Assembly (NCBI GenBank): GCA_015486845.1
Contig: WFQU01000160.1
Coordinates: 3,313 to 67,312 of the forward strand
Direction: 5' to 3'
Origin: Anaerolineae bacterium
Lineage (GTDB): Bacteria > Chloroflexota > Anaerolineae > JAADDB01
Length of the DNA: 64,000 nt
The notes under the pieces are model-generated. The model did not search any database. It was not told where the DNA came from and saw only the letters and a list, made by a program, of their open reading frames with translations. Position numbers and translations under genes: made by a program. Each line of letters opens with the position of its first letter. Position 1 is the stretch's first letter. This document shows, in pieces, positions 15,202-26,208 of this stretch.

Positions 15202-15744
15202 GTGAAAAACGCTGCGGAGTTGGTCAAATATTTCAAAGAGCATCAAGAGGCCCGCGCAGCGCTGGCGCACGCGGTAGCCGAGGCCGAAAACGCGTTCATC
15301 GCCGCGGCCGCCCGGCAAGGGTTACACGATGTTGCCGACGCGGTGCAGCAGTTGCCGCTGGCCGACACGAAAACTTTCCGACAGGCGCTGGCGCTGATGC
15401 TGGTTACTAGGGATAACGAAGCGATGCAACAAGCGCTCGCGAAGCTGCTGGGCGACGTCAAAAGCCTGCCGGAGCGGGAACGGGCGCGAGGGGCGGCGCT
15501 TTATTTGGCAGAGCTGCGCGCTGCGCTTTGGGCGGAACCCCACTTCCACGACGTGGCGGACGCGCTGTTGCAACTGGATCAGTCCCGACGGTTGCAGCAA
15601 GTCCAAGACGCGATTGCCGCCATTGGATGGCGATTGCCGCACATACACGAACGTTGTAATCGCTGTCGGCCAATGGTTACCGGCTACCGGCTATCTCAGC
15701 GTATACCCGGCTGGACAACGCCTGGAAGGTCCGGCCCACGGTGA
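15202..15744 (+). CDS. hypothetical Ala/Leu-rich protein
   Basis: 180-aa ORF with high GC3 bias. It has a convergent 68-bp overlap with the GT4 gene. No recognised domain. Confidence 0.35.
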   Translation: MKNAAELVKYFKEHQEARAALAHAVAEAENAFIAAAARQGLHDVADAVQQLPLADTKTFRQALALMLVTRDNEAMQQALAKLLGDVKSLPERERARGAALYLAELRAALWAEPHFHDVADALLQLDQSRRLQQVQDAIAAIGWRLPHIHERCNRCRPMVTGYRLSQRIPGWTTPGRSGPR

Positions 15745-16858
15745 AATGGCGGGCAACCCGCTGCTGCCCGGCCAGCCCCATGGTTCGCCGCCGTGCCGGG
15801 TCGTTCCAAAGGGCAACCAGCGCTGCCGCCACGCCGTCCAGGTCGCCCGGCGGCAGCAAAAGCCCGGTTTCCCCGTCCATCACAATCTCCGGCAGCGCGC
15901 CGTGGGCGAAAGCCATCAACGGCAGGCCGGCGGCCATCGCTTCGATATTGACCAGCCCGAACGGCTCCGGATCGCCCACATGGACGAAAAGATCCATGGC
16001 AGCCAACGCTGGCCGCACGTCCTCCAACTGGCCGGTGAAAATGACTTTGTCGATCAGCGACGGCTCTTCCGCCAGCGCGTGCAGCGCTGCCACATAATCG
16101 TCGTCCGCTTGCAGCGGGGCGCCGCCCACAATTAAAAACCGCGCCGTCGGGAGGCTGGCGGCAACGCGGGCCGCCGCTTGCAGGAAACGTTTTTGTCCTT
16201 TCCACGGCCGCAGCCGGCCCACAGTGCCGATGACCGGCACGCCGGCGGGGATAGCATGCGCCCGGCGGAACTTCTCTCCGTCCGGCAGCGTGGCCAGCCA
16301 GTTTTCCGGCAGGCCGTTGTAAACCACCGCGGTTTTCGCACCGCAGGGCAGATGAGCCGCCACGGCGCGGGAATTGGCTACCACAGCCGCGGCGCGACGG
16401 CAAAGCCACCGTTTCAGCATGGCATCCATCCAGGGCCAGCGCGGCTTGCTTTCGCTCAGCCAGAAATCGCGCATGTGCCAGATCCAGCGCATCGCGCCGC
16501 TGCTCGCCACCGCGCCGTAAAACGCGGTGCGGACCGTGTTGCTGTGCAGGAAGTCGGCGTGGATAGACCGCGCCAACACGTCGAGGGCGTTCCCTTGTCG
16601 GCGCAGGGTAAGCCAGAAGTCGGCCGAGCGGCGCAACGGCGGAAAGGCAAACCGGTGCCAGGTCACGCCGATTTGCGTTGCTCGGTCCGCCAGCGGCCCG
16701 GCCGGCGTGGCCAAATGGATGTCATGGCCCGCCGCAACCAGCGCCTCCATCAGCCAAAGCAAGCTGTACTCGGCGCCGCCCATGCCCGGGGCGTGGTCGG
16801 CGAATAGGATCGTCCAGCGTCGTTCCGGCGGCACGGCACGGCTCTCCGCCGTGGTCAT
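15677..16858 (-). CDS. family 4 glycosyltransferase (GT4)
   Basis: [20 protein letters not shown]...GETGLL motif. Confidence 0.85.
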
Positions 16859-17667
16859 TGGCCGCTGTCGGCGCCGATGATCTTCAGCCCGGCGCTGGCA
16901 CCTAAGCGGGACGCGCCGGCTTGCACCATCGCCTTTGCTTTGGCGAAATCACGGATGCCACCGGCCGCTTTGACGCCCATATCGTAGCCGACCACAGCGC
17001 GCATCAGCGCGACATCTTCCACCGTGGCGCCGCCGGGGCCGAAACCGGTGGAGGTCTTGACGAACTCGGCGCACGCCGCGTCGGCCAAAACGCACGCCGC
17101 GATCTTCTCTTCGTCGGTCAGCAGCGCCGCTTCGATGATCACTTTGACGTGCGCCCCTTTTTCGTGTGCCGCGACGACCACTGCCCGGATGTCCTCGAAC
17201 ACGGCAGCGTACTGGGCTGCTTTGAGCCGGCCGACGTTGATCACCATGTCCACTTCATCAGCACCGGCGGCCACGGCCGCCTCGGTTTCCACTGCTTTGA
17301 CGCCGGTGAGGGTGGCGCCCAACGGGAAACCGACTACCGCGGCGATGGAGACATCGGTCCCTTGCAATAATTCGGTTGCATAAGGCACCCAGTACGGGTT
17401 GACGCAGACCGCCGCGAAATGGTGGTCCGCGGCTTCCCGGCAAAGGGCCGCGATGCTGCTTTCCGTGGCGTCCGGTTTCAGCAGCGTGTGGTCGATCAAT
17501 GGGGCCAAATCAGCCGGGGACGTGATGCTTAGTCCCCTATCTTGCAACTGCCGGCTGGTCGGGTCTTCTGCCCGTTGGCATTCCTCCGGGACGGTATGTT
17601 GGATTGTGGCGAGAACTTTTTGCCGCATTGCTTTGATTTGGGCGAGGCTGGTTTTTGTTTTTAGCAT
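16855..17667 (-). CDS. deoC: deoxyribose-phosphate aldolase
   Basis: [10 protein letters not shown]...VCVNP...KVIIEAALL...VKTSTGF...GVKAAGGIR. The start is taken at MLKTKT, which has an AAAGGAAAA ribosome-binding site. 4-bp overlap with the GT4 gene. Confidence 0.8.
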
Positions 17668-17763
17668 GGTTTTTCCTTTTTGAGTGGATAGCCTTATGAC
17701 TACACGAAATATAAAATTAAACATTGATAATGATAATGCTAATTTGCACCGATTTTTTCCTGT

Positions 17764-17818
17764 TTGACCGGCGATTAAAATCGCTGCTACGATTGCGAAA
17801 CTTGCCTGCGCAGGTTAT
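17764..17818 (-). repeat. family B partial copy B4
   Basis: tgaccggcgattaaaatcgctgctacgattgcgaaacttgcctgcgcaggtt. About 95 bp upstream of the deoC start. Confidence 0.7.
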
Positions 17819-19362
17819 CTTTCAAGCATCACGCCCAAACGCCCAATTAGCTCGTCGGCCGGCACATCAAAACGCTCGCCGCCCCGGCTATGCACCTCCA
17901 CCAAATCGGTTTCCCCCCATTTTCGGCCGGCCACAACCTGCCACGGCACGCCCAGCAAGTCAGCATCGTTGAATTTGACGCCGGCCCGTGCCGGTCGATC
18001 ATCGTAAAGGACAGCCAGCCCGGCATTGGAGAGCACTTCCGCCAAGTTGTCCGTCCGACGGGTCAAATCGGCGTCTTTGCCGGCCAGTGCCAGCAAATAC
18101 ACGTCGTACGGTGCCACCGCCGGCGGCCAGCGCAACCCGTCCTCGCCATGATGGCAGGCCACCACGGCCGTTGCCAGCGCGGCCAACGAAAGCAATCCGG
18201 TCCGCTGCACTGCCGCTTCCGGCCGGCCGGCCCGGTTCAGATACGAAGGCCCGGCAAACCGCGCCCATGCCCCCACCCGGTAGCCGCGAACGATTACGAG
18301 GCGACCTTCCTCGCAGGCTGGGCAGCGATCTCCCGGCCCAGCCTGTCTCAAATTGGCTACCAGATCGGCGCTGTAGTCGCGGTCGAAATTGCTGTTCAGG
18401 ATGTGATACCCTTCTTTATTGGCTCCGGCGACGAGGTTGGGTGATTTTGCCACGAGATAGTCAATGACTACACGAAAGGCGCCGGGCTCCAGGCCGAGGG
18501 GCGACGCATAGCCGGGGACGGTGCCACCGGCGCGGATTTCTTCCTCTGTGGCCTGCCGGAACGAATCCGCGCCGGTGGCACGCTTCAGCTTGACCTCGTT
18601 CAACTTCGTATCGCCCCGCACAACAACCAAATAGCGTTGGCCGTCACCCACCAGGAAGAGCGCTTTGGCGGTACGGCTGGCCGGAATACCCAAGAAATCC
18701 GCCAGCTCGACGATGGTGCCGCAGTGCGGCGTCTCGATCTCCTCGGCCGGCAACATCGTTTCCTCGGACAACGGCGGATTGCCGCTCAGCGCGGCCGCTT
18801 CGCTGGCCGCGTAATCGCACCGGTCGCAAGCCAGCCACCGCGCCGGCCCATTCTCGGCGGGAACGACCAGCGCGACGGCGTCATCCCCTGCCGGCTGCAG
18901 ATCCGGCAGCAAAAGAAGCGGTACATCCAACGCAGCGGCGATCTCCTCCACCGCTTTCGCCCGTCTGCCCACAACATCCTCTCCGGCATTGCCATCGCGC
19001 CAGGAGGAAAATTGCCGCCACGATTGCGCTCCCCGGCCCCACCGCTGCGTGATAGCCAGCGGCAACTGCTTATACGAAAGGAGAAGCGGCTCGGCTAACG
19101 TCCCCGTCTGCGCCGCCAAAGCGGCCAACGAAACGTCCTCTACGGGCCAGGCAACCTCATCAGCGCCTGGCGACAGCGCCGAGCGCACGATTTCGTCAAT
19201 CCGGTCATACAAGCGGACGCCCAAAGGGGAAAGTGCAGCCGAGGATTCAGCGCCGGCCCAGTAGCCGGCCCGCCAGAGCCATTTCTCGGCCACGGTTGCC
19301 CCCGCCGCCGGCATTTCCCTCCAGGTACGATGGAAAAGGCCTTGCATCCGTGTGATCATCAC
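17815..19362 (-). CDS. prolyl-tRNA synthetase paralogue: INS (editing-like) and anticodon-binding domains are conserved, class II catalytic motifs are degenerate
   Basis: The N-terminus ([19 protein letters not shown]), SYKQLP, the INS segment ([17 protein letters not shown]) and the C-terminal anticodon-binding domain ([28 protein letters not shown]) match bacterial ProRS. The motif-2 FRDE..RxREF and motif-3 GxGxGxxR positions are replaced ([13 protein letters not shown]; [12 protein letters not shown]). The segment containing GPTHEE is deleted. Confidence 0.7.
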
Positions 19363-20327
19363 CCCACCAGTTTTCTCTGTGTGTCGCCATCAAAACCCAC
19401 CGCATCCGAAACGATATACAACGGCCGGCCTTTGACTTCATCATAAATGCGCCCCAAATACTCGCCGATCACGCCCAGGAAAATGAGCTGCACACCGCCC
19501 AAGAAAAGCACCATGACCAACGTCGTCGCCTGGCCGTAGAGCGCCTGGTGGCCGTAAAGACGCAGGAAAATGACCAGCAAAATGCCAAACAGGCTCAGCC
19601 CGGCGGTGATGAAACCCAAATAGGTGGCCAATTGCAGCGGGAAATAGGAAAACGAGGTGATGCCGTCCAGCGCTAAGCGCAGCATTTTGCGGAACGGGTA
19701 GTGCGTCGCCCCGGCAAACCGTTCCTCTCGCACGTATTCCACGCCGGTTTGCTTGAAGCCGACCCAACTGGAAAGCCCTCGCATAAAGCGATGTTTTTCC
19801 CGCATGGTGCGCATAGTCTCCACCACTTTGCGATCCATGAGGCGGAAATCGCCGGCGTCCACCGGCATGTCCACATCGGTAATGCGATAAATGATGCGGT
19901 AAAACAAACTGGCCGTGAAGGACTTGAAGAAGGACTCCCCTTTCCGCTTGGCTCGCACCGCGTAAACGACTTCGTAACCCTCTTTCCACTTGGCGATCAA
20001 ATCGAGAATCACTTCCGGCGGATCCTGCAAATCGGCGTCAATGATCACCACCGCATCGCCGCTGGCGTAATCCATGCCGGCAGAAATGGCCACCTGGTGG
20101 CCGAAATTGCGCGAGAAATTCACCAGTTTATAACGAGGATCCTTACGGTGTAAATCTCGCATGATCTCCGGCGAGCGGTCTTTACTGCCATCATTAACCA
20201 ACACGACCTCATACGGTTCATCTAACTTATCCATTGCACCGGTCAAACGACGATACAATTCCGGCAAGACGCCCTCTTCATTGTAAACCGGCACAATAAT
20301 AGAATATCGCGGTTTCTCTATGACCAA
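19359..20327 (-). CDS. polyprenol-phosphate glycosyltransferase (GT2; GtrB/ArnC/DPM1-like)
   Basis: [11 protein letters not shown]...[10 protein letters not shown]...DADLQDPPE plus two C-terminal transmembrane helices. The TTG start has a GAGGAGG ribosome-binding site. ATGA-type 4-bp overlap with the ProRS-like gene. Confidence 0.85.
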
Positions 20328-20348
20328 AAATACCCTCCTCTAAAACTT

Positions 20349-20575
20349 AAATGGGACGCAGATCAACGCAGGCTGCGCACACAGATAAAAAATCAGGCCC
20401 TCTTTAAAGAAGTTCAACTTCTCGAAGAAGTTGAACTTCTAATAAGCCCCTTAGAAAGGGGCTGGTGTTAAGCAGCCTCTTGACAGAGGACCCTACCTTG
20501 ACGTACCCCGCCGCGGAAGCAAGGGGCCGGCGCACCGGAATGGGACGCAGGTCAACGCAGGCTGCACACGCCCGA
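20349..20575 (+). repeat. family A copy A2 (hairpin 20408-20440)
   Basis: About 90% identical to A1 over shared modules. It lacks one 57-bp internal module. The terminal module abuts the GtrB-like gene start. Confidence 0.8.
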
Positions 20576-20580
20576 CGATT

Positions 20581-20640
20581 AGAAGTCGCTGCTACAACTG
20601 CGAAACCTGCCTGCGCAGGTTGCACGCTAATCGCCGAGCG
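20581..20640 (-). repeat. family B partial copy B5 (adjacent to A2)
   Basis: gctgctacaactgcgaaacctgcctgcgcaggttgcacgctaatcgcc. Confidence 0.7.
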
Positions 20641-20805
20641 TTCCCCCGGCTAAGCTGATCAATTGATTATAATCCCACTCGGCACAAAATGAAAGACAAA
20701 ATGAAAGCCTTTTGGCCCAGCAACAACTATTCTAAATCCGACACGGCTCGCAGAAACATCTCTGAGAATAAGCAAAATTAACCGATTAATACAACTATGC
20801 AAAAC

Positions 20806-20834
20806 TTGACACCCATTCTACACCGACCTATAAT
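20806..20834 (+). promoter_or_regulatory. consensus sigma70 promoter TTGACA-17-TATAAT upstream of the amino-acid ABC transporter operon
   Basis: Perfect -35 and -10 hexamers with a 17-bp spacer. It is followed by a roughly 280-nt leader before the 21120 start. Confidence 0.55.
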
Positions 20835-21119
20835 GGCAGGCAAGCTTCTTTCCGTGGTGTAAATATCATGATCGCTAACCAAAAAACAGGCGATTGTGGC
20901 AACCATAAATACAAAAGATTTTCAATACATTGCTGTGGAATACCAAAAAATAGCTCACGGTAATTTACCAGGTATTTTCCCCCTCAATCGTAGTGATGCC
21001 GATGTCACTCACACGCAGCAAAAGGAGGTGTAGTCTAACCCAAACAGAGATAATTAAGTGTAAGCGCGGTTCGTGTTCAGTAGAAGCATTTGCTCATTTT
21101 CGGGAAGGAGAAAGCGAAC

Positions 21120-22304
21120 ATGTCACGGAAGCATTTTATTCTGTTAACAGTCGTGCTGGTATTGGCTATAGCCGCTTTAGCAGCTTGCAGCGGAGGCGGA
21201 GCTAAGGTCATTAAAGTAGGAATCAACGCTCCTCTTACCGGCAGTATCCCCAAAGTAGGCGAAGGGACCAAATATTCTGCCCAAATGTGGTTGGCAGACA
21301 TCAACAAGGCCGGCGGCCTGCAAGTCGGCAACAAGAAATACAAAGTCGAATTGGTCATCGAAGATAACGAATCGAAAGCAGATTCCGCTGTCAAGGCAAA
21401 TACCAAGATGATCACCCAGGACAATGTGCTTGTTATTATCGGCCCACAGTCATCCAAACAGGCTGTTCCCGCCGGCGAAGTCGCAAATAACTACAAAACA
21501 CCGATGATCAGTCCATGGTCGACGAATCCCAAGACAACACTCAACCGTCCATGGGTTTTCCGTGGTTGTTTCTTAGACCCGTTCCAGGGCCCAGTGATTG
21601 CCAATTTCGTTACAAATCAATTTGGTTTCACCAAAGCAGCCGTGCTTTACGATATTGCCAGCGATTACCCCAAAGGGTTAGCTGAGTATTTCAAGAAGGC
21701 ATGGGAAAAGCTACACGGCGCAGGTTCTGTTGTCGCTTACGAAAGCTTCACCCACGGCGATACAGATTTCAGTGCCCAGCTTACCGCCATCAATAAATCC
21801 GGTGCTCAATTCCTGTTTACCCCGCAGTATTACAGCGAGGTGGCGCTCATCGTCAAGCAAGCTCACCAATTAGGCTGGAACAAGCCCATTGTGGGGAGCG
21901 ACAGTTGGGGTTCCGCTGAGCTCATCAAGCTGTGCGGCTCCGATTGCTATGGTGATTACTTCAGCACCCATTACGCAGCCGCCGGTGCCAAAGGCGCGAC
22001 GAAAGCATTCATCGATCGCTACAATGCTAAATACGGTTATGTGCCGGATGACGTAGCCGCTTTGACCTGGGACTCTCTGAACATTGCCAAAACAGCTATT
22101 CAAAACTGCGGCAAACTTACCGGGAAAATCGCGACCGATCGTAAGTGCGTACGCGATGCCATGGCCAATATCAAGAACTTCGACGGTATCACCGGCAAGA
22201 TGACTTTCAACGAGTCAGGGGATCCATCTAAATGCGCCGTCATCGTCAAGATCAGCGACAAAGGTGAATTCAAGTTCTTCAAGCAAGTTTGTCCCACCAA
22301 GTAA
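21120..22304 (+). CDS. ABC transporter substrate-binding lipoprotein, branched-chain amino-acid (LivJ/LivK, HAAT) family
   Basis: Lipoprotein signal MSRKHFILLTVVLVLAIAALAACSG. Periplasmic binding protein type I fold motifs. A GGAAGGAG ribosome-binding site. Confidence 0.8.
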   Translation: MSRKHFILLTVVLVLAIAALAACSGGGAKVIKVGINAPLTGSIPKVGEGTKYSAQMWLADINKAGGLQVGNKKYKVELVIEDNESKADSAVKANTKMITQDNVLVIIGPQSSKQAVPAGEVANNYKTPMISPWSTNPKTTLNRPWVFRGCFLDPFQGPVIANFVTNQFGFTKAAVLYDIASDYPKGLAEYFKKAWEKLHGAGSVVAYESFTHGDTDFSAQLTAINKSGAQFLFTPQYYSEVALIVKQAHQLGWNKPIVGSDSWGSAELIKLCGSDCYGDYFSTHYAAAGAKGATKAFIDRYNAKYGYVPDDVAALTWDSLNIAKTAIQNCGKLTGKIATDRKCVRDAMANIKNFDGITGKMTFNESGDPSKCAVIVKISDKGEFKFFKQVCPTK

Positions 22305-22383
22305 GGAATCACCTTAAGGCGTTAACGGCCCCAATCAACACAGACTGAGTCTTATCGATAGTGGATAAGTAATCAGCAAACGA

Positions 22384-22420
22384 AGGGCGATGCCTAAAAC
22401 ACCAGACATCGCCCTTTTAT
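22384..22420 (+). terminator. intrinsic terminator/attenuator between the binding-protein gene and the permease genes
   Basis: agggcgatg-(15 nt loop)-catcgccct followed by TTTTAT. Confidence 0.6.
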
Positions 22421-22440
22421 AGGAACGAGGTGTAATCGGA

Positions 22441-23364
22441 ATGGGATATTTCTTGCAAAACATTGTCAATGCGCTGCAATGGGGTAGTTTTTACGCCCTT
22501 GTAGCCATAGGATACTCCATGGTGTATGGTGTCCTCATGCTTTTCAACTTTGCTCACGGAGATGTCTTCATGGTCGGCGCCTACATTGGCTTCTTTACAG
22601 CGTCGGGGCTAATGGCTTTAGCTGCCATGGGGAGTATCGCCATACCGGGATGGCTTATTCTTATATTAACACTCATTATTGCCATGTTCTTGAATTCCTT
22701 TGTCGGCATGGCTGTGGAGCGCATCGGTTATCGCCCATTGAGAGACGCTCCCCGAGCATCGGCTGCCATCACTGGACTCATGATTGGTATCATCTTAGAA
22801 ACAGGTAACTTAGCTTTATTAGGTGCTCAGCGCAGAGCATTTCCACCGCTTATCCCACCAACCGTATACAAAGTAGGCGGCGTCTATATCACAAATCAAA
22901 AAATCGTCATCATCGTCGTCGCGTTAGCTCTCACCCTTGCCCTACACCAATTCGTACAACATACCAAATGGGGCATGGCCATGCGGGCCATGGCGTATGA
23001 CTTCCTCGTTGTCCCCCTCATGGGTATACCCATAAACACCATTGCGGCGCTTACCTTCGCACTGGGCTCTGCACTAGCCGCTGCCGCCGGCGTGCTTTAC
23101 GGTGTGGCTTATCCTGTTTTAGGCCCTTACATGGGCATTATTATTGGGTGGAAGGCTTTTGTGGCCGCCATTTTAGGAGGACGCGGCTCCATCTTAGGCG
23201 CTGCTTCAGCCGGTTTCCTCTTAGGATTCATTGAAATCTTCGTCACCATGATTTTCCCGTCTACGATGCGGGATTTCATTGCTTATACGATTATCCTTTT
23301 GATCCTAACCTTCCTTCCCAACGGTTTCTTTGGTGAGCCTTACAGCGCTAAGCTAAGACTGTGA
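22441..23364 (+). CDS. livH: branched-chain amino-acid ABC transporter permease
   Basis: 307-aa LivH-type permease. Confidence 0.8.
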   Translation: MGYFLQNIVNALQWGSFYALVAIGYSMVYGVLMLFNFAHGDVFMVGAYIGFFTASGLMALAAMGSIAIPGWLILILTLIIAMFLNSFVGMAVERIGYRPLRDAPRASAAITGLMIGIILETGNLALLGAQRRAFPPLIPPTVYKVGGVYITNQKIVIIVVALALTLALHQFVQHTKWGMAMRAMAYDFLVVPLMGIPINTIAALTFALGSALAAAAGVLYGVAYPVLGPYMGIIIGWKAFVAAILGGRGSILGAASAGFLLGFIEIFVTMIFPSTMRDFIAYTIILLILTFLPNGFFGEPYSAKLRL

Positions 23365-23408
23365 CGGATAACATGTCACCACACATAGAAGATATAAAGG
23401 GCTGATTT

Positions 23409-24722
23409 ATGGAAGCAACAAGTAGCGTACCCACTAAACGAAATGCTTTTAATGCATGGCTAAGCAAACAATGGATGCCTTATCGACAAGTGTCACTATT
23501 AGGTTGGCTGCTTGGTTCCTTGGTAGCTGTTCTCTTAGAGACCTTCATCGGGACATCGTTAGCCTGGGCCTTAGGCATGAGCGACGTGCCAGCACTGTTT
23601 GGATTCGTTGTCATGCTCAAACAACCTGAGCTGCTACCATCCATCATTTTGTATTTGCTGCTCATTTATTTTATCCCCATCGCGATTGTCGTCCGTTTAA
23701 CAAAATCCATTGCCAATAAAATTGCTGGATTATTATTCCGATACCCCCTTTGGATCACGGCACTGTTCCACATTGTCTTGCTTTATGCCGTCATTGACGT
23801 TTGGGCCGTCATGAATGACTACCGGGTTTTGCTGGCTAAATTGATGATGATTGCGATCATCACCACGCTAAGTCTCAATGTCGTCAACGGCTACATGGGT
23901 GAGTTTTCCTGTTCGCATCCCGGCTTTCTGGCCGTAGGCGCTTATACAGCCTCCATTATCATGGTACTCTTCTTCGTCAATGACAAAGTGATGGGGCCAG
24001 CGCTCCTGCCGCCGGCATTAGGACCGTTTTTCTTCCCCATTGTTCTCATTTTAGGCGGCGTGGTAGCTGCATTCAGCGCACTGATCGTGGCTATTCCATC
24101 ATTCCATACCAGGGGCGATTATTTGGCCATTATTTCATTAGCCTTCATGTTCATCATCAAGAGCCTCATCGAAAACTTACAAGTATTCGGTGGCGCACGC
24201 GGTTTCATGGGCCAGCCGAATTTGGCATCACTACCCGTTGTGTTCGTGTGGACCATTATTGCCATCTGGACCATCAATAATTTCGTTCGCTCTACTTTGG
24301 GCAAAGCCATGAATGCCGTACGGGATGATGAAACCGCCGCCGACGCCATGACTGTCAATACCAGAAACACTAAAATGACAGCCTTTTTGTTCGCTGCTTT
24401 TTGGGCCGGCATTGCCGGTGGCCTTTTCGCCCATGTCATGCGTTATGTCAACCCTGGCAGCTTTGGCATCAAAAAATTAGCCGAAGTGCTGGCTATGGTT
24501 TATTTCGGCGGCTTGAATTCTGTTGTTGGTTCTATCGTCGGTGCTATCGGGTTCAATTTTCTCAGCGAAATGTTACGCCCGTTAGAAATCCTCAAGTGGG
24601 TCATCATCCCCGTTTTGCTAATCTTAGTGATGATTTTCCGGCCTACCGGACTCATCGCGTTCAAAGATTTTGACCCGGAAGAATTGCTAAGACCGAAAAA
24701 CCAAACAGAAGAAGAGGTATAA
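23409..24722 (+). CDS. livM: branched-chain amino-acid ABC transporter permease (LivM type, with an N-terminal extension)
   Basis: 437 aa. LivM core with extra N-terminal transmembrane helices. Confidence 0.75.
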   Translation: MEATSSVPTKRNAFNAWLSKQWMPYRQVSLLGWLLGSLVAVLLETFIGTSLAWALGMSDVPALFGFVVMLKQPELLPSIILYLLLIYFIPIAIVVRLTKSIANKIAGLLFRYPLWITALFHIVLLYAVIDVWAVMNDYRVLLAKLMMIAIITTLSLNVVNGYMGEFSCSHPGFLAVGAYTASIIMVLFFVNDKVMGPALLPPALGPFFFPIVLILGGVVAAFSALIVAIPSFHTRGDYLAIISLAFMFIIKSLIENLQVFGGARGFMGQPNLASLPVVFVWTIIAIWTINNFVRSTLGKAMNAVRDDETAADAMTVNTRNTKMTAFLFAAFWAGIAGGLFAHVMRYVNPGSFGIKKLAEVLAMVYFGGLNSVVGSIVGAIGFNFLSEMLRPLEILKWVIIPVLLILVMIFRPTGLIAFKDFDPEELLRPKNQTEEEV

Positions 24723-24724
24723 AG

Positions 24725-25495
24725 ATGCCATTACTTCAGGTTGAACACATGACGCACTTCTTCGGCGGATTACGGGCCGTGCATGACTATAATTTGTCCA
24801 TCGAACAAGGACAAATCCGTGGGCTCATCGGGCCCAATGGCGCCGGTAAGTCAACTATCTTTAATCTCATCACTGGCGTCTATCGTCCGTCCGAAGGAAA
24901 AGTAACCTTTCGTGGCGAAAGCATCGTAGGACTCCCTTCCCACGAAATCGCAGCCTTGGGCATGGGCCGCACTTTTCAAAATCTGCGACTATGGCGGCAC
25001 ATGAGCGTTTTGGATCATGTCAAGATGTCCCAGTATTCACAAATCGATTACGGCCTCATCGGCGCCTTTTTCGGCACTAAAAGACGTAACCAACAAGAAA
25101 AAGAAAATACCGAAAAAGCTTTACAGCTCTTAGACTTAGTCGGCATTCGCCATTTAGCCGACAGCATGGTCACGAACCTGCCTTATGGCGTACAACGCCG
25201 GGTGGAAATGGCCCGCGCTTTAGCCATCAATCCCAAATTACTGTTATTAGATGAACCGACAGCTGGCATGAATCCAGATGAACTGATGGACTTGATGCAG
25301 GTCATTCGCCAGGTTCATAACACGTTTGGGCTTTCCATTTTTCTCATCGAACACAGAATGAAGTTTGTCATGGAACTTTGTGAGCGCATCCAGACTTTAG
25401 TCTTCGGGGAAGTCATCGCCGAGGGCACCCCAAAAGAGATCCAAAATAATCCCAAAGTCATCGAAGCATATTTGGGCAAGGAGGTCGAAACCTGA
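24725..25495 (+). CDS. livG: ABC transporter ATP-binding protein (LivG type)
   Basis: Walker A GPNGAGKST and signature LPYGVQRRVEMARAL. Confidence 0.85.
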   Translation: MPLLQVEHMTHFFGGLRAVHDYNLSIEQGQIRGLIGPNGAGKSTIFNLITGVYRPSEGKVTFRGESIVGLPSHEIAALGMGRTFQNLRLWRHMSVLDHVKMSQYSQIDYGLIGAFFGTKRRNQQEKENTEKALQLLDLVGIRHLADSMVTNLPYGVQRRVEMARALAINPKLLLLDEPTAGMNPDELMDLMQVIRQVHNTFGLSIFLIEHRMKFVMELCERIQTLVFGEVIAEGTPKEIQNNPKVIEAYLGKEVET

Positions 25496-26208
25496 TGTTG
25501 CTATCAGTCGAGAACCTACAGGTTTCCTACGGAAAAATTAAAGCGTTGCACGGCATCAATTTTCACATTGACGAAGGCGAGATTGTCTGCATTATCGGCG
25601 CCAACGGCGCCGGTAAGAGCACGACATTGCGGGCCATTTCTCGCATGGTGCCGGCCAGCCCGGGTAGCAAAATGACCTATGCAGGGAAGGACTTGCTGGA
25701 ATATTCTGCCGACAAAGTTGTCAGCCAATTGGGTATTTCCCATGTTCCGGAAGGCAGACGCCTGTTCGGGAACTTAACCGTCATGGAGAACCTCATTCTT
25801 TCCGCGTTCGCCCGCAAGGATAAGAAAGCCATTGACAGGGATATTGAGCGCGTGTTCGGTATTTTCCCGCGGCTGGAAGAGCGGAAAAGGCAGAAAGCAG
25901 GCACCCTCAGCGGCGGCGAACAACAAATGTTGGCCGTCGGACGAGCTTTTGTCAGTGCTCGTAAATTAATGCTCTTAGACGAACCATCCATGGGCTTAGC
26001 ACCTTTGCTCATGCTCTCGGTTTTCGACGCGTTGAAGGCAATCAACCAGGAAGGCACAACAATTTTGTTGGTGGAACAGAACGCCCGCATGGCGCTAAAA
26101 TTCTCGCAGCGTGGCTACGTCATCGAAACCGGCAATATCGTCATGGAAGGCAAATCGGAAGACCTCCTCAACAATCCTGACGTGAAAAAAGCGTATTTAG
26201 GTGCCTGA
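25495..26208 (+). CDS. livF: ABC transporter ATP-binding protein (LivF type)
   Basis: GANGAGKSTTL and LSGGEQQMLAVGRAF. ATGA overlap with livG. Confidence 0.85.
   Translation: MLLSVENLQVSYGKIKALHGINFHIDEGEIVCIIGANGAGKSTTLRAISRMVPASPGSKMTYAGKDLLEYSADKVVSQLGISHVPEGRRLFGNLTVMENLILSAFARKDKKAIDRDIERVFGIFPRLEERKRQKAGTLSGGEQQMLAVGRAFVSARKLMLLDEPSMGLAPLLMLSVFDALKAINQEGTTILLVEQNARMALKFSQRGYVIETGNIVMEGKSEDLLNNPDVKKAYLGA

What the first reader, a model, noticed from the sequence alone, without database searches (positions are those of the whole stretch)
17815..19362. ProRS paralogue with an eroded aminoacylation core but intact INS and anticodon-binding domains, inside a glycan locus
The 515-aa product aligns end to end with bacterial-type prolyl-tRNA synthetase. 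The N-terminal helix, SYKQLP, the INS editing-domain landmarks (GDxxLNEVK, DYAA) and the C-terminal anticodon-binding domain (LxDDRxxRxGVKFxDADLxGVP) are all present. The class II catalytic signatures are replaced: motif 2 FRDE...RxREF becomes [13 protein letters not shown], and motif 3 GCYGIGVTR becomes [12 protein letters not shown]. The segment carrying the GPTHEE loop is deleted. The gene is translationally coupled (4-bp overlap) to a polyprenol-phosphate glycosyltransferase and sits with GT4, DeoC, GtrA and O-antigen-ligase genes. This suggests a repurposed tRNA-binding or deacylating protein used in envelope glycan or lipid modification, rather than a housekeeping synthetase.
Basis: partly seen in the sequence, partly recalled or inferred. 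Interest (0 to 1): 0.72.

Follow-up and report, generated by a model that had tools for sequence, protein, structure and literature searches.

The report
Dead ProRS paralogue keeping editing domain
This gene encodes a copy of prolyl-tRNA synthetase that has lost the residues needed to charge tRNA but keeps its proofreading and tRNA-anticodon-binding parts intact, so it most likely works as a stand-alone proofreading enzyme for tRNAPro and not as part of sugar-coat synthesis.

Summary
Window 17815-19359 (minus strand, 514 aa from ATG; 515 aa from GTG at 19362) encodes a full-length bacterial-type ProRS fold (AF2 pLDDT 93.7; TM 0.83 to E. faecalis ProRS). Its aminoacylation core is destroyed. 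Of the positions at least 95% conserved in 107 canonical ProRS, it keeps 16/50 and 3/17 in the two catalytic segments, but 33/35 in the INS editing domain and 20/20 in the anticodon-binding domain. All known INS editing residues (E. coli T257, I263, L266, K279, D350, H369) are intact. The gene is under purifying selection (dN/dS about 0.2, strongest on INS), so it is not a pseudogene. It is one of several core-eroded ProRS paralogue lineages in Chloroflexota, most of them annotated as "proline--tRNA ligase". The best reading is a synthetase-dead, free-standing Ala-tRNAPro deacylase that finds its tRNA through its own anticodon-binding domain. This would be a bacterial ProRS counterpart of archaeal ThrRS-ed. 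The glycan-function idea is weak: the coupled GT2 is a core Anaerolineae gene that elsewhere lacks this partner, other paralogues sit in unrelated contexts, and start/stop overlaps are common in this window. I could not test whether a canonical proS exists in the same genome.

The parts
17815..19359 (-). ProRS-like CDS, 514 aa from ATG 19359 (alternative GTG at 19362 gives 515 aa); stop codon 17815-17817
   Evidence: ORF list and translation. The N-terminus [17 protein letters not shown] aligns with the ProRS N-terminus. Identical copies occur in three independent assemblies.
19255..19359 (-). Conserved N-terminal segment (residues 1-35), also kept in the ~400-aa reduced relatives
   Evidence: Three-way identity within the clade is 0.63, against 0.23-0.37 for the rest of the N-terminal core. 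The segment is retained in L050, L076 and L087.
18865..19254 (-). Eroded N-terminal half of the class II catalytic domain (residues 36-165); lacks the TxE-loop segment and the FRDE half of motif 2
   Evidence: Alignment A3. 16/50 conserved canonical positions retained over residues 1-165. pN/pS 0.41-0.60. No PF00587 hit.
19009..19047 (-). Motif 2 remnant [13 protein letters not shown] (residues 105-117)
   Evidence: E. coli R140 and E142 fall in a deletion; SREF has become WRQF.
18340..18864 (-). INS editing domain (residues 166-340) with an intact active site: T210, I216, L219, K232, D300, H319 (E. coli T257, I263, L266, K279, D350, H369)
   Evidence: PF04073 91.8 bits. Residue mapping. 33/35 conserved positions retained. 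Lowest pN/pS in the gene, 0.22-0.36.
18115..18339 (-). Eroded C-terminal part of the catalytic domain (residues 341-415), including the motif 3 remnant at 18178-18204 (RTGLLSLAA; E. coli G445, G447 and R450 become L, S and A)
   Evidence: 3/17 conserved positions retained.
17818..18114 (-). Anticodon-binding domain (residues 416-514)
   Evidence: PF03129 50.3 bits. 20/20 conserved canonical positions retained. The [14 protein letters not shown] signature is invariant.
19359..20327 (-). Upstream polyprenol-phosphate GT2 (PgfS/ArnC-like), whose stop overlaps the start of the ProRS-like gene
   Evidence: PF00535 123.9 bits; NF047588 291 bits and NF007986 199 bits, both below cutoff. Junction GGGTGATGATC. 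The overlap is conserved in L003 and L004. Core gene of Anaerolineae.
16855..17724 (-). Downstream DeoC (deoxyribose-phosphate aldolase; probable start at 17667), after a 146-bp AT-rich gap with a promoter-like site
   Evidence: TIGR00126 273 bits, above the 117 cutoff. Gap and promoter-like site. Conserved downstream of the gene in L003 and L004.
15677..16858 (-). GT4 glycosyltransferase, overlapping DeoC by 4 bp
   Evidence: PF00534 and PF13439 hits. Conserved in L003.

Best explanation
The gene encodes a pseudo-synthetase: a ProRS paralogue that can no longer activate proline or charge tRNA. It keeps the class II fold as a scaffold holding a fully intact INS editing domain and a fully intact anticodon-binding domain (ABD).

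The most likely mechanism has four steps:
1. The ABD docks tRNAPro through anticodon bases G35/G36.
2. The dead core, probably still dimeric, positions the acceptor end.
3. The INS site, with catalytic Lys232 (E. coli K279), hydrolyses mischarged Ala-tRNAPro.
4. Because the protein makes no aminoacyl-tRNA itself, it must act in trans on product released by the genuine ProRS.

Functionally this makes it a 'ProRS-ed', analogous to crenarchaeal ThrRS-ed. It would do the job of ProXp-ala but with anticodon-based tRNA recognition instead of acceptor-stem recognition.

Shown here: loss of the catalytic motifs, retention of the editing and ABD residues, retention of the fold, purifying selection, and co-transcription geometry with the GT2. 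Inferred: the deacylase activity, its substrate, its action in trans, and the existence of a canonical ProRS elsewhere in the genome.
For: Catalytic core lost:
- No PF00587 hit; ProRS equivalog scores far below cutoff.
- TxE segment, FRDE, HIFQLGT and the motif 3 Gly/Arg residues deleted or replaced.
- 16/50 and 3/17 conserved core positions retained.

Editing and tRNA-binding modules intact:
- INS 33/35 and ABD 20/20 conserved positions retained.
- E. coli T257, I263, L266, K279, D350 and H369 all present.

Fold intact: AF2 pLDDT 93.7, pTM 0.90; TM 0.83-0.84 to E. faecalis ProRS 2j3l.

Real, selected gene:
- Intact ORFs at 100%, 71% and 53% identity.
- dN/dS 0.17-0.20, with INS the most constrained part.
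- Within the clade, conservation peaks in the N-terminal 35 aa, INS and ABD.

Family-level pattern:
- In 73 related core-eroded paralogues the editing residues are 99-100% conserved, while T109, F155, G445 and G447 fall to 0-3%.
- The domain conservation ranking flips relative to canonical ProRS.
- Still more reduced ~400-aa forms keep only the N-terminal segment, INS and ABD.

Literature:
- INS has no intrinsic tRNA specificity and depends on the ProRS ABD and G35/G36 (PMC3973320, PMC11295145). INS plus ABD is therefore what a self-sufficient Ala-tRNAPro deacylase would need, going by the reported dependence of INS on the ABD.
- ThrRS-ed is a precedent for a synthetase-derived trans-editor lacking the catalytic site (PMC9976931, PMC3592468).
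Against: - No biochemical data.
- I could not show that the same genome encodes a canonical ProRS, or whether that enzyme has its own INS. All canonical Chloroflexota ProRS sampled keep INS catalytic residues, so a second Ala-tRNAPro editor would look redundant.
- A family-specific Cys at E. coli position 260, next to the substrate pocket (97% in paralogues vs 18% in canonical), could mean a different substrate.
- The eroded core is still under some constraint (pN/pS 0.4-0.6), which would also fit a binding or regulatory role.
- The conserved coupling to a GT2 in three lineages is not explained by an editing role.
Confidence: 0.5

Rival explanations
1. It is a deacylase with a changed substrate. 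The INS site is used against a different non-cognate aminoacyl-tRNAPro (for example Cys, 2-aminobutyrate or a proline analogue such as azetidine-2-carboxylate) and not against Ala-tRNAPro.
For: A Cys at E. coli position 260, between pocket residues T257 and I263, is 97% conserved in the paralogue family and present in the query clade (C213), but occurs in only 18% of canonical ProRS. INS-superfamily members are known to differ in amino-acid specificity (PMC11295145). This would remove the redundancy problem with a canonical INS-bearing ProRS.
Against: All pocket residues that I recall as setting alanine specificity in E. coli INS (I263, L266, H369, K279) are unchanged. There is no other systematic INS difference between the query clade and canonical enzymes: 33/35 conserved positions are retained.
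Confidence: 0.15
2. It is a non-catalytic tRNAPro-binding or ProRS-binding pseudoenzyme: a regulator, tRNA sequestering or sensing factor, or heterodimer partner of the true ProRS, comparable to HisZ with HisG.
For: The class II scaffold, the motif 1 proline (E. coli P72) and the conserved N-terminal segment are kept. The eroded core remains under partial purifying selection. The ABD is 100% retained.
Against: A pure binding role does not explain why every catalytic residue of the editing site is invariant, or why INS is the most constrained part of the gene. No partner gene is conserved across the paralogue contexts examined.
Confidence: 0.15
3. One reading: the protein supplies or removes an aminoacyl group from tRNA in a pathway that modifies an envelope glycan or polyprenol-linked sugar, working with the coupled GT2 and the GT4.
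For: The GT2 / ProRS-like / DeoC / GT4 order, with an overlapping GT2 stop and ProRS-like start, is conserved in three lineages down to 53% identity while the flanks differ. More glycan genes (GT2, GT4, GtrA, Wzy_C) lie 7-12 kb away.
Against: - The GT2 is a core gene found without this partner in other Anaerolineae.
- No GT, DeoC or GT4 lies near 80 other ProRS-type loci or near the other degraded paralogues.
- The block includes DeoC, a nucleoside-catabolism enzyme.
- No aa-tRNA transferase domain is present in the neighbours scanned.
- Start/stop overlaps are common in this window.
- The protein has no signal peptide or membrane segment evident by eye in the translation (no prediction tool was run).
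Confidence: 0.07
4. It is a functionless relic: a duplicated proS on its way to being lost.
For: It evolves faster than its neighbours (53-71% identity vs 83-94% for the GT2; dN/dS 0.2 vs 0.04-0.10). It carries multiple internal deletions. The clade is rare, known from only a handful of samples.
Against: The roughly 515-codon ORFs are intact in lineages whose synonymous sites are near saturation (dS 1-2.6), with dN/dS about 0.2. INS and ABD are retained 94-100%. The fold is predicted confidently. The same retention pattern recurs in several paralogue lineages.
Confidence: 0.08
5. It is an active but highly divergent ProRS.
For: It has an end-to-end ProRS fold. NCBI and JGI name related paralogues 'proline--tRNA ligase'.
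Against: The residues that are 98-100% conserved in 107 canonical ProRS (T109, E111, R140, G445, G447, R450) are deleted or replaced. There is no PF00587 hit. HMM scores are well below half the cutoffs.
Confidence: 0.02

Closest known systems
Bacterial-type prolyl-tRNA synthetase with INS domain (e.g. E. faecalis 2J3L, E. coli ProS)
   Same: Same three-part architecture and fold (TM 0.83-0.84). Same INS editing-site residues and the same anticodon-binding domain signature.
   Different: The aminoacylation site is destroyed: the TxE segment, FRDE and HIFQLGT are deleted and the motif 3 Gly/Arg residues are replaced. The protein fails the ProRS HMM cutoffs and has no class II core Pfam hit.
Crenarchaeal ThrRS-ed (free-standing editing paralogue of ThrRS)
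   Same: A synthetase-derived protein that lacks the catalytic site but keeps the editing and anticodon-binding parts, and edits in trans (PMC9976931, PMC3592468, PMC11295145). This is the same logic proposed here.
   Different: It belongs to a different synthetase family and has a different editing fold. ThrRS-ed is paired with a ThrRS-cat that lacks an editing domain; no such division of labour could be shown here, and all sampled canonical Chloroflexota ProRS keep INS.
ProXp-ala and YbaK (single-domain INS-superfamily trans-editing factors)
   Same: Homologous editing fold (PF04073) and the conserved catalytic Lys. ProXp-ala hydrolyses Ala-tRNAPro in trans (PMC11295145, PMC3973320).
   Different: Those proteins are single-domain, and the review describes all free-standing INS-superfamily members as single-domain (PMC11295145). 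This protein has 514 aa, its own ABD and a dead core, and is a direct ProRS derivative. It scores 25 vs a 153-bit cutoff on the YbaK model. ProXp-ala reads the acceptor stem; this protein would be expected to read the anticodon.
ProRSx of Streptomyces (the only ProRS paralogue listed in the 2022 review PMC9437257)
   Same: It arose by duplication of a bacterial proS.
   Different: ProRSx is an active synthetase that charges a dedicated tRNAProA. Here the catalytic motifs are lost and the 64-kb window contains no tRNA gene.
Other catalytically inactive aaRS paralogues (HisZ, SLIMP and similar)
   Same: The class II scaffold is retained after loss of aminoacylation (my own knowledge, and PMC9437257 for SLIMP).
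   Different: Those paralogues have no editing domain. Here the best-conserved module is an editing site.

Membership tests
Prolyl-tRNA synthetase, bacterial type (NCBIfam NF006625 / TIGR00409) | Whole-protein score at or above the curated equivalog cutoff | tested here: not met
   NF006625 231.9 vs 558 bits; TIGR00409 148.5 vs 306.7 bits.
Prolyl-tRNA synthetase, bacterial type | Class II motif 2 (fRDE...R.REF) with the invariant Arg (E. coli R140) | tested here: not met
   FRDEVRPRF falls in a 9-residue deletion. R140 is 100% conserved in 107 canonical sequences and absent here.
Prolyl-tRNA synthetase, bacterial type | Class II motif 3 (G.YGIG..R) with the invariant Arg (E. coli R450) | tested here: not met
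   RTGLLSLAA: G445 to L, G447 to S, R450 to A.
Prolyl-tRNA synthetase, bacterial type | TxE proline-binding loop (GPTHEE) and the GHIFQLGTKYS segment | tested here: not met
   Both lie in deletions.
Prolyl-tRNA synthetase, bacterial type | Class II core Pfam domain PF00587 | tested here: not met
   No hit at E<=0.01. By comparison, E. coli scores 128 bits, Bellilinea 100 bits and the YRL-type paralogues 19-53 bits.
Prolyl-tRNA synthetase, bacterial type | Overall three-domain fold (core, INS insertion, C-terminal ABD) | tested here: met
   AF2 pLDDT 93.7. Foldseek best hit 2j3l, E 2e-52, TM 0.83-0.84.
Prolyl-tRNA synthetase, bacterial type | Pro-AMP formation and tRNAPro aminoacylation | not testable with these tools
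   Needs enzyme assays.
INS / YbaK editing-domain superfamily (PF04073) | Pfam tRNA_edit hit above the gathering score | tested here: met
   91.8 vs 25.5 bits, residues 211-327.
INS / YbaK editing-domain superfamily (PF04073) | Catalytic Lys (E. coli K279) and the pocket residues T257, I263, L266, D350, H369 | tested here: met
   K232, T210, I216, L219, D300 and H319 are present in all three clade members. K279A is described as editing-defective in PMC3973320. The roles of the other residues come from my own recollection of the E. coli mutagenesis literature.
INS / YbaK editing-domain superfamily (PF04073) | Aminoacyl-tRNA deacylase activity | not testable with these tools
   Needs deacylation assays.
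Single-domain trans-editing factors (YbaK, ProXp-ala and similar) | Free-standing single-domain architecture (~150-170 aa); YbaK equivalog score | tested here: not met
   514 aa with three domains. TIGR00011 scores 25.3 vs 153.25 bits. PMC11295145 states that free-standing members are single-domain.
Synthetase-derived trans-editing paralogue (ThrRS-ed type; functional class, not homology) | Derived from the cognate aaRS, catalytic site lost, editing domain and ABD kept | tested here: met
   Definition from PMC9976931 and PMC11295145.
Synthetase-derived trans-editing paralogue (ThrRS-ed type) | Partner synthetase in the same genome, in ThrRS-cat lacking the editing domain | not testable with these tools
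   - The window has no second proS.
- Accession and sample matching failed.
ProRSx / tRNAProA pair | Active catalytic motifs and a dedicated tRNA gene | tested here: not met
   Motifs lost. No tRNA gene in the 64-kb window; the rest of the genome was not examined.
aa-tRNA-dependent envelope modification systems (MprF or Fem type) | An aminoacyl-tRNA transferase domain in the gene or its operon | tested here: not met
   Pfam scans of the gene and the 18 neighbouring ORFs tested show GT2, GT4, DeoC, LepB, MoeA, GtrA, Wzy_C, MFS and Liv domains only; no DUF2156, FemAB or similar.

The most novel reading that the evidence does not exclude
Chloroflexota carry a previously undescribed class of multi-domain trans-editing factors. 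These are ProRS paralogues that have repeatedly lost the aminoacylation site, from YRL-type forms of about 570 aa, through the roughly 515-aa query clade, to forms of about 400 aa. All of them strictly keep INS plus the anticodon-binding domain. They would be the first free-standing INS-superfamily members that recognise tRNAPro through its anticodon, and a bacterial ProRS counterpart of archaeal ThrRS-ed. Many are currently annotated as genuine proline--tRNA ligases.
Probability: 0.45. Interest if true: 0.65.

Novelty: new variant of a known kind. Interest (0 to 1): 0.52.

Why it matters
If these proteins are active deacylases, they add a new architecture to the proline-codon quality-control system: an editing domain with its own anticodon-binding module on a dead synthetase scaffold. 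They would also provide natural "separation-of-function" ProRS variants for studying how anticodon binding about 70 Å away directs INS editing, which the field's own papers describe as an open question (PMC3973320).

There is a practical point too. Many of these paralogues are labelled "proline--tRNA ligase" in public MAG annotations, so genome-completeness and metabolic inferences that count them as the housekeeping ProRS may be wrong.

Tried and rejected
1. Finding the canonical proS of the same genome. None of these routes worked:
   - tblastn of canonical ProRS against the window finds only this gene.
   - Exact look-ups gave short contigs only.
   - NCBI accession comparison of paralogue and canonical proteins showed no shared MAG.
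   - One candidate with a matching source pattern (P0104) came from another sample.
2. A clade-specific DNA probe ([10 protein letters not shown]) against JGI metagenomes returned two contigs. Neither gave any tblastn hit to the six query proteins, and L091's ORFs were read and look unrelated, so I treated both as chance matches.
3. The NJ tree placed the clade inside the YRL-type family. I do not rely on this, because class-specific HMMs score the clade equally against YRL-type and canonical profiles, so long-branch attraction is likely.
4. Horizontal acquisition of the ProRS-like/DeoC/GT4 trio. These are the three GC-richest genes in the window, but in L003 the excess is smaller and not seen at third codon positions. 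I left this as a lead.
5. Rfam and tRNA scans of the window found nothing.
6. Antisense ORFs over the gene are not conserved in L003 and were rejected as GC artefacts.
7. Terminator and promoter scans give only weak consensus hits.
Full report
**1. What is there.**
Window 17815..19362 is an intact ORF on the minus strand. The most plausible start is the ATG at 19359, giving 514 aa with N-terminus [17 protein letters not shown], which aligns with the ProRS N-terminus MRxSxLFxQTLRExP. The junction with the upstream gene reads GGG-TGA-TG-ATC, so the overlap is 1 bp (ATG) or 4 bp (GTG). Public gene calls start at Met17 (499 aa) and cut off the conserved N-terminus. Identical copies occur in an ENA metagenome assembly, an NCBI MAG (GCA_027008065.1) and a Logan assembly, so this is not an assembly artefact.

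**2. The catalytic core is destroyed; editing and anticodon-binding modules are intact.**
Pfam detects only tRNA_edit (91.8 bits) and HGTP_anticodon (50.3 bits) and no class II core. The ProRS equivalog HMMs score 232 against a cutoff of 558, and 148.5 against 306.7. PDB sequence matches cover only residues ~163-512.

Alignment with E. coli ProRS, fetched as a numbering reference, shows four losses:
- Deletion of E. coli ~83-118, including GPTHEE.
- A 9-residue deletion removing FRDEVRPRF; the second half of motif 2, SREF, has become WRQF.
- A 7-residue deletion removing HIFQLGT.
- Motif 3 GCYGIGVTR replaced by TGLLSLAAL, with R450 changed to Ala.

The table counts positions that are at least 95% conserved in 107 canonical ProRS and how many the protein retains:

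| Domain | Retained |
|---|---|
| N-terminal catalytic half | 16 of 50 |
| C-terminal catalytic part | 3 of 17 |
| INS editing domain | 33 of 35 |
| Anticodon-binding domain | 20 of 20 |

The editing residues T257, I263, L266, K279, D350 and H369 (E. coli numbering) are all present, as T210, I216, L219, K232, D300 and H319. K279A is the standard editing-defective mutant (PMC3973320).

Despite the erosion, AlphaFold2 models the whole chain with pLDDT 93.7 and pTM 0.90. The best structural match is E. faecalis ProRS 2J3L at TM 0.83-0.84. The dead core therefore persists as a scaffold.

**3. It is a selected gene, not a pseudogene.**
Only two diverged orthologues were found among 5.8 billion clusters: P0002 at 71% and P0003 at 53% identity. 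Both are intact ORFs. Selection measures:

| Gene or part | Measure | Value |
|---|---|---|
| ProRS-like gene, whole | dN/dS | 0.17-0.20 |
| INS | pN/pS | 0.22-0.36 |
| ABD | pN/pS | 0.31-0.43 |
| Core remnants | pN/pS | 0.41-0.60 |
| GT2 | dN/dS | 0.04-0.10 |
| DeoC | dN/dS | 0.11 |
| GT4 | dN/dS | 0.18 |

Three-way identity within the clade peaks in residues 1-35 (0.63), the INS core (0.60-0.62) and the ABD (0.58-0.70). It falls to 0.23-0.37 in residues 36-165. Antisense ORFs are not conserved.

**4. It is part of a wider phenomenon.**
Motif inspection of the 120 best database hits and of 80 GTDB loci shows that Chloroflexota hold canonical ProRS alongside several kinds of core-eroded ProRS-like proteins:
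- A large "YRL-type" family. Its motif 3 reads GRYRLYxDR, T109 is never Thr, and motif 2 R140 is kept in only 63% of members.
- Partly deleted forms: P0005, P0044, P0106, L010 and L013.
- Forms of about 400 aa (L050, L076, L087) that keep only the N-terminal ~60-90 residues, INS and ABD.

Across 73 such paralogues the editing residues are 99-100% conserved and the ABD signature 97-100%, while T109, F155, G445 and G447 drop to 0-3%. The domain conservation ranking also flips:

| Class | Core N | INS | Core C | ABD |
|---|---|---|---|---|
| Canonical | 0.70 | 0.62 | 0.71 | 0.58 |
| Paralogues | 0.56 | 0.75 | 0.63 | 0.69 |

The Pfam class II core score declines stepwise: E. coli 128 bits, Bellilinea 100, YRL-type 53 to 19, query none.

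An NJ tree puts the query clade inside the paralogue clade. However, class-specific HMMs score it equally against both classes (331 vs 335 bits). I therefore treat its origin, within the YRL family or independent, as unresolved. NCBI and JGI label several of these paralogues "proline--tRNA ligase".

**5. Context and the glycan hypothesis.**
The order GT2 / ProRS-like / DeoC / GT4 is conserved in all clade members, with the GT2 stop overlapping the ProRS-like start, while the outer flanks differ in L003. That supports co-transcription with the GT2. A 146-bp AT-rich gap with a promoter-like site precedes DeoC.

The functional inference is nevertheless weak:
- The GT2 (PgfS/ArnC-like polyprenol-phosphate glycosyltransferase) is a core gene, 70-76% identical in hundreds of Chloroflexota/Anaerolineae MAGs.
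- In three genomes outside the clade it lies in a different conserved context (Lactamase_B, GT2, then opposite-strand Glycos_transf_4/PMT_2 and a class II aaRS), with no ProRS-like gene or DeoC.
- None of 80 other ProRS-type loci has GT2, DeoC or GT4 nearby.
- Other degraded paralogues sit in unrelated contexts: VKOR and thymidine kinase; a ribosomal-protein cluster and DUF5656; a BTAD regulator; ornithine cyclodeaminase and Liv ATPases.
- DeoC scores above its equivalog cutoff as deoxyribose-phosphate aldolase. In L003 a nucleoside phosphorylase follows the GT4, so the block is functionally mixed.
- 1-bp and 4-bp overlaps are frequent in this window.
- GtrA and the Wzy_C gene exist but lie 7-10 kb away, beyond LepB, MoeA and SmpB.
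- No aa-tRNA transferase domain appears in the gene or in the neighbouring ORFs scanned.

The ProRS-like, DeoC and GT4 trio is the GC-richest gene set in the window (0.62-0.67, against 0.537 +/- 0.048; the GT2 is 0.53). This hints at an insertion downstream of the core GT2, but the signal is weaker in L003.

**6. Mechanism.**
Published work shows that INS has no intrinsic tRNA specificity. It edits Ala-tRNAPro only because the ProRS ABD anchors the G35/G36 anticodon, and acceptor-stem changes do not matter (PMC3973320; reviewed in PMC11295145). A protein keeping INS, ABD and the scaffold that spaces them therefore has what the published data indicate INS-type editing depends on, and lacks everything needed for synthesis.

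I conclude that it most likely hydrolyses mischarged tRNAPro in trans. The precedent is ThrRS-ed, a truncated ThrRS lacking the catalytic site that trans-edits Ser-tRNAThr (PMC9976931, PMC3592468).

Known free-standing INS-superfamily proteins are all single-domain (PMC11295145). The only ProRS paralogue listed in a 2022 review is the catalytically active ProRSx (PMC9437257). Searches for "ProRS-like", "ProRS paralog" and for aaRS paralogues in Chloroflexi found no description of such proteins.

Weak points of this reading:
- There is no assay.
- I could not show a canonical ProRS in the same genome.
- All sampled canonical Chloroflexota ProRS keep INS, so the role may be redundant or the substrate may differ. 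A family-specific Cys at E. coli position 260 lies beside the pocket.

**7. Verdict.**
- Observation: confirmed.
- Interpretation: half right. It is a repurposed tRNA-binding deacylase candidate, but the glycan link is not supported.
- Novelty: a new variant of a known kind, namely a synthetase-derived trans-editing paralogue within the INS superfamily.
- Interest: moderate. It would rise if the family-wide pattern is confirmed biochemically.

Noticed in passing
Related proteins P0004, P0006-P0030 and others; loci L019, L092, L094: A large 'YRL-type' ProRS-like family in Chloroflexota MAGs. Motif 3 reads GRYRLYxDR, T109 is never Thr, F155, G445 and G447 are lost, and R140 is kept in only 63% of members, yet INS and ABD are 97-100% conserved. 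NCBI and JGI annotate them as proline--tRNA ligase (e.g. GAB4533396.1, PKO21313.1), which is probably a mis-annotation.
   Followed up: partly
L050:9941-10951, L076:8571-9524, L087:9752-10981: ProRS derivatives of about 400 aa that keep the N-terminal ~60-90 residues, INS (all editing residues) and ABD, but have the catalytic core deleted. They are a more extreme version of the same reduction.
   Followed up: partly
window 18826-18828, 18817-18819, 18322-18324, 18313-18315 (Cys178, 181, 346, 349); Cys213 at 18721-18723: A four-Cys cluster (CxxC...CxxC) at the two hinges of the INS domain is conserved in both canonical and paralogue Chloroflexota ProRS but absent in E. coli. It may be a zinc site. 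A further Cys at E. coli position 260, beside the editing pocket, is 97% conserved in paralogues against 18% in canonical enzymes.
   Followed up: partly
window 15677-19359: The ProRS-like, DeoC and GT4 genes are the three most GC-rich of 49 genes in the window (0.62-0.67, against mean 0.537 and SD 0.048), while the coupled GT2 is average (0.53). This could mark an inserted block. The signal is weaker and not seen at third codon positions in L003.
   Followed up: partly
window 19359-20327; L095, L096, L097: The GT2 is a very slowly evolving core gene of Chloroflexota/Anaerolineae, at least 70% identical in hundreds of MAGs. Its usual context is Lactamase_B, GT2, then opposite-strand Glycos_transf_4/PMT_2 and a class II aaRS, and it lacks the ProRS-like gene.
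   Followed up: yes
window 20328-21089: A non-coding gap of about 760 bp lies between the GT2 and the divergent livJ-like gene. It has a perfect sigma-70 consensus (TTGACA-17-TATAAT) at 20806-20834 (+) and a weaker site on the minus strand at 20843-20815, which would leave a roughly 490-nt leader before the GT2 start. There is no Rfam hit.
   Followed up: no
L100 (P0005 context); window 21090-26208: The partly deleted paralogue P0005 lies next to an ornithine cyclodeaminase-family gene (this enzyme family makes proline from ornithine, from my own knowledge) and LivG/F-like ABC ATPases. The window's operon is divergent from a complete Liv-type amino-acid ABC transporter operon. This may be coincidence.
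   Followed up: no
L001:1169-2668, L002:2746-4245: Public gene calls for this protein start at Met17 (499 aa), removing the conserved ProRS N-terminal segment. P0003 is on record only from ENA, although its GT2 neighbour (P0130) is also in NCBI, so the NCBI annotation may have skipped the gene or flagged it as a pseudogene.
   Followed up: no
L003:5808-7586; L095:11350-12693; L097:6613-7956: A class II Asp/Asn-type aaRS gene recurs a few kb from the core GT2, on the opposite strand, both in the query-clade relative and in outside genomes. This looks like inherited synteny unrelated to the ProRS-like gene.
   Followed up: no
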